Origin: a virus | Lineage: Duplodnaviria > Heunggongvirae > Uroviricota > Caudoviricetes | Virus record (IMG/VR): IMGVR_UViG_2541047850_000007 | Coordinates: 1 to 10,146 of that record | Length of the DNA stretch: 10,146 nt | Strand: one strand, 5' to 3' | Shown: positions 9,001-10,146 of the stretch, piece after piece | How positions within the stretch are numbered: the first letter of the stretch is position 1 | Layout of the letters: each line of letters starts with the position of its first letter | Made by a program: the position numbers

Positions 9001-10146
9001 TATGGACATGCACAGCCCGCAAGCCGTATCAGCTGGCATGGCGTACGATGGCAGAAACCAGGGCGATGACGGCGACATCGATCGCATACTGAAAACCATC
9101 TGAGACAAGGCCGGAGAAATCCGGCTTTTTTTTACGGGTCCTTTCCGGCATATGGACCCGTTACGGGGCGGCGACCTCGCGGTTTTTCGCTATTTATGAG
9201 CCTTTTCAGGGGGGTGGTGGTGGTTTTGTTGTTTGCTCTATCTTTATGAATAAAAAGGGAAAGATGCAAGCAATACACCAACCTGAAGCAGTAATTAAGT
9301 TGGTGTATTAATGAAATCGCACCTGATGAACAAAAAAAACATGGCTAAAAGCTGCCGTGTAAGTGCGACAGCGTTCGACAAGTGGGGAGTAACTCCCGTT
9401 GAGCGTAAAGGCCGTGAGGCGTTTTATGATGTTGCCAGCGTGATAGACAATAGGGTTAACAATGCAATTAGCCAGCTTACAAACGACAAAGGCGATATTG
9501 ACGATGATGAACTATTACGAGTCAGGATCAGATTACTGACAGCGCAGGCGGAGGCGCAGGAGCTTAAAAACGAGCGCGAACGAGGCGACGTTATTGATAC
9601 AGGGTTTTGCCTGTACGCGCTTTCAAAGCTGGCGAGCCAGATTTCTTCAATCATGGACAGCATCCCGCTTACTATGCAAAGGAGCTTTCCACACATTACC
9701 CCAGCCATGCTGGATGGGCTTAAAAGGGAAGTGGTTAAAGCCTGTAATGCCAGTGCCAGAGTTGCCGACAACCTCCCACAGATACTGGCTGATTACTTGA
9801 AAGAAACAACCGGAAACGTACCGGAAAAGTTGCAGCAGAATAAAGATAAGTAACGTAGTACGCTATGACTGAATCCGAAATACTGCGATTAATCCGCCGC
9901 GTCTCTGGAATCAGCCAGCAGGCTGACGAACAGACCACGCAGCCGGACAGCGTGACAGCCGAAAACTATGCGCGTGTGGTTGCTGAGGTGATGCGCCGTG
10001 ATGGTATCCAGCTTAATGATGTGGATATGCGCGACATACGGATCCGCGTTCTTGAAATGCTGGCCTACAATCGCCGCGTTGAGATGTATCGGGAGAAAGA
10101 AAAAATAACGTACCACTGGAAGAAGCCGGAGCGGTTACGGCGGTAA

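What the first reader, a model, noticed from the sequence alone, without database searches (positions are those of the whole stretch)
9311..9853. Nu1-like small terminase without a cognate large terminase: predicted to recruit helper gpA
The protein keeps the N-terminal winged-HTH region and the C-terminal half, which in lambda Nu1 mediates interaction with gpA, yet the downstream ORF (93 aa) is not a large terminase. A satellite TerS that retains the TerL-docking region while changing DNA specificity would redirect helper terminase to satellite cos. It is conceptually related to Rpp-mediated redirection in E. coli PICIs but uses a bona fide Nu1 homolog.
Basis: inference. Interest (0 to 1): 0.65.

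Follow-up and report, generated by a model that had tools for sequence, protein, structure and literature searches.

The report
Satellite island's own lambda-type small terminase
This is the small terminase gene of a known kind of E. coli phage satellite (a PICI of the published EcCIIHE3034/EcCICFT073 family); it sits next to a private packaging-recognition site and has no large terminase, so it most likely steers a helper phage's packaging enzyme onto the island's DNA, an expected but still untested strategy.

Summary
Window 9311-9853 (+) encodes an intact 180-aa Nu1-family small terminase (Pfam PF07471, 81 bits; 34% identical to lambda Nu1 over its full length). The next ORF (93 aa) is not a terminase. 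In the closest complete genome the island ends 1.2 kb later at attR with no TerL.

The window is a phage-inducible chromosomal island (PICI) at the cspD-clpS site, a relative of EcCIIHE3034, which was reported in 2018 to "encode TerS". It is syntenic with EcCICFT073. Only 9208-9864 (cosB plus this gene) differs; EcCICFT073 carries cosB plus rppA there.

- **Mosaic protein:** the DNA-binding domain is N15-type (62% identical). The rest is closest to lambdoid PhiR5_1.
- **cos site:** a lambda-type cosQ-cosN-I2 lies 134 nt upstream. It is followed by motifs conserved in 15 satellites, one of them the N15-type R3 core TTGTTGTT.
- **No TerL:** none of 57 satellite-clade loci has a TerL nearby.

Best reading: a satellite TerS that binds a private cosB and brings helper TerL to a shared cosN. 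Direct TerL docking is unproven; in two helper-embedded pairs the C-termini are only 30-40% identical. I rate it a new member of a known kind, of modest interest.

The parts
9311..9853 (+). terS: Nu1-family small terminase of the satellite, 180 aa. The DNA-binding domain is aa 1-48 (9311-9454). The conserved middle domain is aa 73-126 (9527-9688). The C-terminal putative TerL-docking region is aa 127-166 (9689-9808). A satellite-specific tail is aa 167-180.
   Evidence: PF07471 at 81 bits and PHROG 57 over the full length. Lambda Nu1 34%. Domain identities. dN/dS 0.08-0.27.
9135..9148 (+). cosQ-like element CGGGTCCTTTCCGG
   Evidence: Aligns with lambda, phage 21 and PhiR5_1 and is near-invariant in 15 satellites.
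9166..9177 (+). cosN cohesive-end sequence GGGCGGCGACCT, identical to lambda
   Evidence: Single exact copy in the window. Window 9130-9211 matches annotated phage 21 cos features, and 9128-9199 is 95.8% identical to PhiR5_1.
9188..9199 (+). I2-like block CGCTATTTATGA, the last element shared with helper-type cos sites and with EcCICFT073
9213..9234 (+). Candidate R3-equivalent TerS binding site GGTGGTGGTGGTTTTGTTGTTT, at nt 48-69 from the cohesive end
   Evidence: Conserved across 15 satellites from several genera while the flanks diverge. Shares the TTGTTGTT core that all N15-type phages keep at the R3 position. Absent from Rpp-type EcCICFT073.
9271..9282 (+). Second conserved cosB motif CAATACACCAAC, the left arm of the inverted repeat; possible R2-like site
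   Evidence: Conserved as CAAYACACCMAC in 14 of 15 satellites. Exact match at 9271-9282, plus a one-mismatch inverted copy at 9299-9310.
9299..9309 (+). Right arm of the perfect 11-nt inverted repeat; it overlaps the ribosome-binding region and is lineage-specific
   Evidence: One search confirms the repeat. One search shows it is degenerate or absent in other lineages.
9208..9864 (+). Exchangeable specificity cassette. This is cosB plus terS here, and cosB plus rppA (plus cos2) in EcCICFT073.
   Evidence: blastn against EcCICFT073: 6825-9207 at 92.8% and 9865-10146 at 91.8% are homologous, with nothing in between.
9107..9128 (+). Terminator-like hairpin with a T-run between the capsid module and cos
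9865..10146 (+). 93-aa ORF of unknown function; conserved in both TerS-type and Rpp-type islands; not a terminase
   Evidence: PHROG 1561 and no Pfam hit. 91.8% identical to the EcCICFT073 and EcCIIHE3034 copies.
7275..9103 (+). Upstream capsid module. It comprises a gpE-like major capsid protein (7275-8330), a gpD-like decoration protein (8333-8677) and a 137-aa protein resembling the C-terminal (scaffold) part of head maturation proteases (8690-9103).
   Evidence: PF03864, PF02924, PHROG 1999 and PHROG 53
1..6466 (+). PICI backbone: tyrosine integrase (1-1239), AlpA-type HTH, DUF4222, D5-type primase (3411-5243), SSB (5773-6183) and PerC-like regulator (6191-6466)

Best explanation
The gene encodes the island's own cos-type (Nu1-family) small terminase. 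The proposed mechanism follows; steps 1-3 are inferred from comparative data, steps 4-5 by analogy.

1. The island is a phage-inducible chromosomal island (PICI) of the EcCIIHE3034/EcCICFT073 family, and after helper induction it replicates.
2. The N15-type winged-HTH domain of its TerS binds a private cosB. The candidate sites are the R3-equivalent at 9213-9234 and probably the CAATACACCAAC motif at 9271-9282.
3. This cosB lies immediately right of a cosQ-cosN-I2 segment of the same type as in lambdoid helpers.
4. Through its retained middle and C-terminal regions, TerS brings the helper's large terminase (gpA type) to that cosN. TerL nicks there and packages island DNA into helper-derived heads.
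5. By competing for TerL it should also depress helper packaging.

Functionally this is the alternative to Rpp at the same locus. Rpp borrows the helper's TerS to reach TerL. This protein would replace the helper's TerS, so mobilisation should not need helper terS.
For: **Shown by sequence**
- Full-length Nu1 family membership.
- No TerL in the island.
- None of 57 satellite-clade loci has a TerL within up to 10 kb, whereas 65 of 70 phage-clade loci have TerL abutting terS.
- The layout cosQ-cosN-I2, then cosB, then terS mirrors lambda, 21 and N15.
- Against EcCICFT073, only cosB plus the specificity gene is swapped.

**Comparative inference**
- The DNA-binding domain is 62% identical to N15 gp1 and shares its indels. 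It is the best conserved part across satellites, 72-98% identical with dN/dS 0.08.
- The cosB motif GGTGGTGGTGKTTGTTGTT is conserved in 15 satellites from E. coli, Citrobacter/Enterobacter-type, Kosakonia and Superficieibacter.
- That motif shares the TTGTTGTT core that every N15-type phage keeps at the R3 position.
- In the Kosakonia helper-embedded pair, satellite and helper share cosQ/cosN/I2, including an unusual cohesive end GGGCGGCAGACT. They diverge exactly at cosB.
- The C-terminal 40 aa keep the family-invariant residues P127, K138 and N146, with A144 near-invariant and P156 and Y162 conserved in at least 90% of sequences. They are under purifying selection, dN/dS 0.16.
- Their synonymous divergence is 2.6-fold elevated, which suggests exchanged alleles.
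- Phage TerS C-terminal classes covary with TerL N-terminal classes.
- The window's aa 73-166 is closest to PhiR5_1 TerS at 61%. The window's cosN flank is also 95.8% identical to that phage.

**Analogy from the literature**
- SaPI TerS redirects helper TerL (described in PMC6739421).
- Rpp lacks the C-terminal 30-40 residues and therefore needs helper TerS (PMC9026076).
Against: - No binding, packaging or transfer data exist for this protein.
- The related EcCIIHE3034 was essentially not transferred after mitomycin induction of its host's prophages (PMC6092414), so no helper is known.
- In both natural helper-embedded pairs, the satellite C-terminal 40 aa are only 40% (Kosakonia) and about 30% (E. 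coli AST216) identical to the helper's Nu1. That is no closer than to non-cognate classes.
- In AST216 the satellite's cohesive-end sequence differs from the embedding prophage's at 5 of 12 positions.
- The structure model is of low confidence, pLDDT 61. The wHTH fold is supported only by non-significant MerR-type matches.
- No sigma-70-like promoter was found between the terminator-like hairpin and the gene.
Confidence: 0.6

Rival explanations
1. Rpp-like indirect route. The satellite TerS binds the private cosB but reaches TerL only by forming mixed oligomers with the helper's own TerS, through the conserved middle (self-association) region. Helper terS would then still be required.
For: - The middle region (aa 73-126) is the part best conserved between satellite and phage TerS, at 52-69%.
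- The C-terminal 40 aa do not resemble those of the embedding helpers.
- The gene sits at the rpp locus of a family known to work through helper TerS (PMC6739421).
Against: - The C-terminal region is retained at full length with the family-invariant residues, under purifying selection. That retention would be unnecessary under this model.
- Rpp contacts the TerS DNA-binding domain, not the middle region (PMC6739421), so there is no precedent for this interface.
- The protein has no similarity to Rpp.
Confidence: 0.2
2. Interference-only decoy. The protein mainly titrates helper TerL or TerS to block helper packaging, acting as a defence or parasitism factor. Island packaging would rely on something else, for example a helper-type cos such as the cos2 seen in relatives.
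For: - Relatives such as EcCIIHE3034 carry a second, inverted cos with a phage-21-like cosB. That site could be used by the helper holoenzyme directly.
- PICIs commonly encode packaging-interference functions (PMC6739421).
Against: - The window itself lacks cos2, as do the H1, L083 and L084 variants, so its only cos has the private cosB.
- The cosB motifs co-conserved with the DNA-binding domain across genera argue for a DNA-recognition role.
Confidence: 0.08
3. Decaying relic of a captured phage late-gene cluster, with no present function.
For: - PICIs of this family capture helper late genes (PMC10111431).
- The capsid genes of EcCICFT073 are dispensable for transfer (PMC6092414).
- EcCIIHE3034 did not transfer.
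Against: - 11 of 11 alleles are intact at 180 aa, with dN/dS 0.08-0.27.
- The gene is present in 769 of 5,426 complete E. coli genomes.
- It is conserved together with its cosB across genera and across different integrase and replication backbones.
Confidence: 0.05

Closest known systems
EcCIIHE3034 (E. coli IHE3034 PICI at cspD-clpS; Fillol-Salom et al. 2018, PMC6092414)
   Same: Same att site and core (ATGATAGTTAT), the same gene order, and a TerS gene 95.5% identical (the allele shared with Nissle 1917). The paper states that this island 'encodes TerS'.
   Different: The window lacks the roughly 250-bp segment carrying the second, inverted cos. Its replication-module sequence also differs. 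The published work did not analyse the TerS, its cosB or a helper.
Rpp (RppA/B/C) of EcCICFT073-type cos PICIs (Fillol-Salom et al. 2019, PMC6739421)
   Same: Same position in a syntenic island, directly right of a lambda-type cosN with a non-phage cosB. By inference it has the same job: redirecting a lambdoid terminase to island DNA.
   Different: There is no detectable sequence relationship. Rpp is 144-153 aa, lacks the C-terminal 30-40 residues and works as a heterocomplex with helper TerS. This protein is a full-length Nu1 homologue of 180 aa.
Phage N15 gp1 / cosB-N15 (Feiss laboratory; summarised in PMC9026076)
   Same: The DNA-binding domain is of the same type, 62% identical with shared deletions. 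The R3-position motif shares the TTGTTGTT core. There is no IHF consensus in cosB.
   Different: N15 gp1 has a lambda-type C-terminus and an overlapping TerL gene. The satellite has a different C-terminal allele, a 14-aa tail and no TerL. The satellite motif lies 9 nt further from cosN and is preceded by (GGT)n.
SaPI TerS of pac-type staphylococcal islands (cited in PMC6739421)
   Same: The satellite encodes a TerS but no TerL. That TerS recognises satellite DNA and uses helper TerL.
   Different: The SaPI TerS uses headful (pac) packaging and belongs to an unrelated TerS family. It is accompanied by Ppi, which blocks the phage TerS. Here the system is cos-type and Nu1-family, and no Ppi analogue has been identified.
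Helper-embedded PICIs (Mageeney et al. 2023, PMC10111431)
   Same: The nearest non-E. coli homologues (57-60% identical) and an 89%-identical E. coli allele sit in islands inserted in the gpE gene of lambdoid prophages.
   Different: The window's island is chromosomal (cspD-clpS). That paper discusses islands lacking terS.

Membership tests
Lambda-type small terminase (Phage_Nu1, PF07471) | Sequence match to the family model above its curated threshold, over the full length | tested here: met
   81.1 bits against a cutoff of 30. PHROG 57 covers aa 1-178. Lambda Nu1 aligns from 3 to 180.
Lambda-type small terminase (Phage_Nu1, PF07471) | N-terminal winged helix-turn-helix DNA-binding domain | tested here: inconclusive
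   The N-terminus aligns with lambda and is 62% identical to N15. The predicted secondary structure has the beta-alpha-alpha-beta-alpha order. The model's pLDDT is only 61, and Foldseek gives only non-significant MerR-type wHTH hits with E of 0.1 or more. No PDB sequence hit was found.
Lambda-type small terminase (Phage_Nu1, PF07471) | Gene lies immediately right of cosN-cosB | tested here: met
   The cohesive end is at 9166-9177 and the gene starts at 9311, nt 146 of the would-be mature DNA.
Lambda-type small terminase (Phage_Nu1, PF07471) | Overlapping or adjacent large terminase gene | tested here: not met
   There is no TerL in the island. None of 57 satellite-clade loci has one, against 65 of 70 phage loci.
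Lambda-type small terminase (Phage_Nu1, PF07471) | C-terminal about 40 residues bind the TerL N-terminus; the protein binds R sites in cosB | not testable with these tools
   Only indirect evidence is available: retained invariant residues, purifying selection and co-conserved cosB motifs.
Rpp (redirecting phage packaging) proteins | Homology to RppA/B/C; 144-153 aa; lacks the TerS C-terminal region | tested here: not met
   BLASTP finds no alignment and hhalign gives probability 0.06%. The protein is 180 aa with a full C-terminal region. RppA has no PF07471 hit.
Rpp (redirecting phage packaging) proteins | Encoded right of the PICI cos, between the 137-aa gene and the 93-aa gene | tested here: met
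   Synteny with EcCICFT073.
Gram-negative PICI (EcCICFT073/EcCIIHE3034 type) | int-alpA-primase backbone, about 10-12 kb, own att site, no lysis or tail genes, cos site | tested here: met
   Gene content. att repeats lie 11.5 kb apart at cspD-clpS. This is the same site as the published EcCIIHE3034.
Gram-negative PICI (EcCICFT073/EcCIIHE3034 type) | Induced and transferred by a helper phage | not testable with these tools
   The published test of EcCIIHE3034 with resident prophages was essentially negative.
Capsid-forming PICI (cf-PICI) | Own TerL, portal, protease and head-tail connectors | tested here: not met
   Only a major capsid protein, a decoration protein and a scaffold-like protein are present, with no TerL or portal.
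SaPI-type satellite TerS | Satellite TerS without TerL | tested here: met
SaPI-type satellite TerS | Headful (pac) packaging | tested here: not met
   A lambda-type cosN with cosQ is present.

The most novel reading that the evidence does not exclude
Cos-type satellites may have a third way to hijack packaging, besides copying the helper's cos (SaPIbov5) and Rpp. Under this reading a complete Nu1-type TerS with an N15-type DNA-binding module and a private cosB sits next to a helper-type cosN, so the island would not need the helper's TerS. Exchangeable C-terminal alleles would be tuned to different lambdoid TerL classes. This module would also be the commoner one in E. coli: 769 genomes against 97 with rppA.
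Probability: 0.45. Interest if true: 0.55.

Novelty: new member of a known kind. Interest (0 to 1): 0.35.

Why it matters
PICIs spread virulence and defence genes. For Gram-negative cos PICIs, the only worked-out packaging mechanism is Rpp.

The TerS-type module seen here is about eight times more frequent than rppA in complete E. coli genomes. It is present in Nissle 1917, O157:H7, O55:H7 and the meningitis strain IHE3034. It has no known helper and no experimental characterisation in the literature I could search.

The comparative data give concrete, cheap experiments:
- a defined candidate binding site to test;
- a prediction that the island does not need helper terS;
- candidate helper classes (PhiR5_1/PhiR12-type).

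If confirmed, the result would extend the known logic of satellite piracy. It would not overturn it.

Tried and rejected
- **First genome-contig scan:** the single-protein query found no relatives. It had to be repeated with an alignment.
- **PDB sequence search:** no Nu1 or Rpp structure was hit.
- **AlphaFold model:** built from a shallow 24-sequence alignment, it was of low confidence, pLDDT 61. The Foldseek result is only suggestive and I did not use it as evidence of fold.
- **IHF sites:** no consensus site in cosB at one mismatch or fewer.
- **Promoter:** no sigma-70-like promoter upstream of terS.
- **Citrobacter-type allele:** a search for it in E. coli genomes found nothing.
- **The protein is an Rpp:** considered and rejected.
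- **The island is a cf-PICI (EcCIEDL933 type):** considered and rejected, because it has no TerL or portal.
- **The perfect inverted repeat is the TerS operator:** considered and rejected, because its right arm is not conserved and overlaps the ribosome-binding region.
- **The satellite C-terminus is copied from its helper's TerS:** considered and rejected on two embedded pairs.
- **Literature searches:** several returned only noise. No paper in the searchable library characterises a Nu1-type TerS in these islands.

Full report
**1. What is there**

Window 9311-9853 (+) is an ATG-to-TAA ORF of 180 aa.
- It scores 81 bits on Pfam Phage_Nu1, against a cutoff of 30.
- It matches PHROG 57, 'terminase small subunit', over aa 1-178.
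- It aligns end to end with lambda Nu1 (34% identity, E 2e-33) and with phage 21 gp1 (33%).
- Its best phage match is N15 gp1 at 46.6%.

The next ORF (9865-10146, 93 aa) has no Pfam hit and belongs to a PHROG of unknown function.

**2. Context**

The window is a phage-inducible chromosomal island (PICI). Its genes, in order, are:
- integrase, AlpA-type regulator, DUF4222, D5-type primase, SSB, PerC-like regulator;
- a gpE-like capsid protein, a gpD-like decoration protein and a scaffold-like 137-aa protein;
- then cos, terS and the 93-aa ORF.

In the closest complete genome (98.4% identical) it lies between cspD/yljB and clpS. It is bounded by 11-bp ATGATAGTTAT repeats 11.5 kb apart. Nothing terminase-sized occupies the 1.2 kb between the 93-aa ORF and attR.

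This att site, the size and the gene order are those of EcCIIHE3034, published in 2018. That paper says the island 'encodes TerS'. It also reports essentially no transfer after induction of the host's prophages (PMC6092414).

**3. Relation to Rpp**

EcCICFT073 is the model Gram-negative cos PICI, and it has the same gene order. blastn shows window 6825-9207 (92.8%) and 9865-10146 (91.8%) are homologous to it. The segment 9208-9864 is not.

That segment holds cosB plus terS in the window. In EcCICFT073 it holds cosB plus rppA, plus a second inverted cos.

The two proteins are unrelated by BLASTP and by profile comparison. RppA does not hit PF07471.

In complete E. coli genomes the terS allele family occurs in 769 of 5,426. 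rppA occurs in 97.

**4. The cos site**

Upstream of terS, in order, lie:
- a cosQ-like block (9135-9148);
- the lambda cohesive-end sequence GGGCGGCGACCT (9166-9177);
- the I2-like block CGCTATTTATGA (9188-9199).

The window and EcCICFT073 are nearly identical up to 9199 and diverge immediately after.

In an alignment of 15 satellites with this TerS type, two blocks stand out in otherwise diverged DNA. The satellites come from several E. coli lineages, Citrobacter/Enterobacter-type helper-embedded islands, Kosakonia and Superficieibacter.
- GGTGGTGGTG(T/G)TTGTTGTT, at window 9213-9234. This is nt 48-69 from the cohesive end, the position of R3 in lambda and N15.
- CAAYACACCMAC, at window 9271-9282.

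Its right arm, however, is lineage-specific and overlaps the ribosome-binding region.

**5. A mosaic protein**

| Region | N15 | PhiR5_1 | lambda |
|---|---|---|---|
| aa 1-48 (DNA-binding domain) | 62%, shares both deletions | about 31-33% | about 31-40% |
| aa 73-166 | 44% | 61% | 43% |

Phage 21 is also about 31% identical in aa 1-48.

All N15-type phages retrieved, including distant ones, keep GGTTGTTGTTT at the R3 position. The satellites share this TTGTTGTT core. That ties the conserved DNA motif to the conserved domain type.

Within the satellite clade the DNA-binding domain is the most conserved part, at 72-98% identity. The last 40 aligned residues are the least conserved, at 28-95%.

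In 11 E. coli alleles, all intact, dN/dS is as follows:

| Region | dN/dS | Note |
|---|---|---|
| DNA-binding domain | 0.08 | |
| Middle region | 0.16 | |
| C-terminal region | 0.16 | synonymous divergence 2.6-fold higher |

So the C-terminal region is functional, but it exists as old alleles that have been exchanged.

**6. Absence of TerL is a clade property**

None of 57 loci whose TerS is at least 47.5% identical to the window's has a gpA homologue within up to 10 kb. By contrast, 65 of 70 phage-clade loci have TerL abutting terS.

**7. Natural helper-satellite pairs**

- **Kosakonia.** Here the satellite is embedded in a lambdoid prophage's gpE gene. Satellite and helper share cosQ-cosN-I2, including an unusual cohesive end (GGGCGGCAGACT). 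They diverge at cosB: the helper has a lambda-like R3 and the satellite has the GGT/GTT motif. This is what the model predicts.
- **C-termini in both pairs.** The satellite's C-terminal 40 aa are only 40% identical to that helper's Nu1. In an E. coli embedded pair (strain AST216) the TerS is 89% identical to the window's, yet its C-terminus is about 30% identical to the helper's.
- **Cohesive ends in AST216.** They differ at 5 of 12 positions between satellite and helper.

Among phages, TerS C-terminal classes covary with TerL N-terminal classes. So either the embedding prophage is not the packaging helper, or docking tolerates low identity, or TerL is reached indirectly.

**8. Conclusion**

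The best-supported reading (confidence about 0.6) is a satellite TerS that recognises a private, N15-type cosB beside a helper-type cosN and recruits helper TerL.
- The DNA-recognition half rests on solid comparative evidence.
- The TerL-docking half is inference from retained architecture and from analogy with SaPI TerS.
- The main rival (about 0.2) is an Rpp-like dependence on helper TerS through mixed oligomers.
- Decoy-only and relic readings are unlikely.

**9. Novelty**

- Satellite TerS without TerL is a textbook PICI feature (PMC6739421, PMC10085698).
- A TerS-encoding PICI at this very site is published (PMC6092414).
- I found no characterisation of this Nu1-type module, its cosB or its helper in the searchable library.

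I file it as a new member of a known kind. Its interest is modest, and it suggests some concrete experiments.

Noticed in passing
window 9853-9865; L088 about 9890-10140; L004 about 13100-13370: The window has only 11 nt between terS and the 93-aa ORF. EcCIIHE3034, Nissle, O157 and EcCICFT073 carry an extra segment of about 250 bp there, holding a second, inverted cos. The cos2 of IHE3034 has a phage-21-like cosB, so those relatives carry both a private and a helper-type cos.
   Followed up: partly
window 9212-9224 versus L004 12612-12623: The TerS-type cosB has (GGT)n at nt 47-59 from the cohesive end. The Rpp-type EcCICFT073 cosB has (ACC)n at nt 54-65. This is the same triplet repeat on the opposite strand at nearly the same distance from cosN. 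It may be chance or an inverted R element.
   Followed up: no
L169 (E. coli AST216) 5240-23230: This is a helper-embedded PICI with a window-type TerS inside the gpE gene of a lambda-type prophage. The satellite cohesive-end sequence GGGCGTCAGGCG differs from the helper's GGGCGGCGACCT at 5 of 12 positions. That raises the question of whether the embedding prophage is really the packaging helper.
   Followed up: partly
window 8690-9103: The 137-aa protein before cos matches the C-terminal end of head-maturation-protease families (PHROG 53, positions 494-567 of 583), the scaffold-like part. The island therefore encodes a capsid, decoration and scaffold-like trio but no portal or protease. In helper-embedded relatives this slot holds an AlpA-type HTH protein instead.
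   Followed up: no
window 9689-9850 (terS codons 127-180): Synonymous divergence among E. coli alleles is about 2.6 times higher here than in the rest of the gene, while dN/dS stays at 0.16. That is a signature of recombinational exchange of C-terminal alleles.
   Followed up: partly
window 1869-2810 (+): This 313-aa ORF overlaps small genes annotated on both strands in related genomes (YlcI/YnfO-like, Icd-like). It is probably not a real gene.
   Followed up: no
window 9809-9830: A tandem 11-nt direct repeat, ACCGGAAACGT / ACCGGAAAAGT, lies inside the codons for the satellite-specific C-terminal tail. It is also partly complementary to the cosQ region at 9130-9148 (79% over 19 nt).
   Followed up: no
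L026-L033, L045, L055-L058 and others (genome contigs): Short contigs in 'genomes' of unrelated taxa (Kitasatospora, Paenibacillus, Bradyrhizobium, Oceanobacillus and others) encode gpA segments 100% identical to lambda's. These are most likely lambda control-DNA contamination in public assemblies.
   Followed up: no
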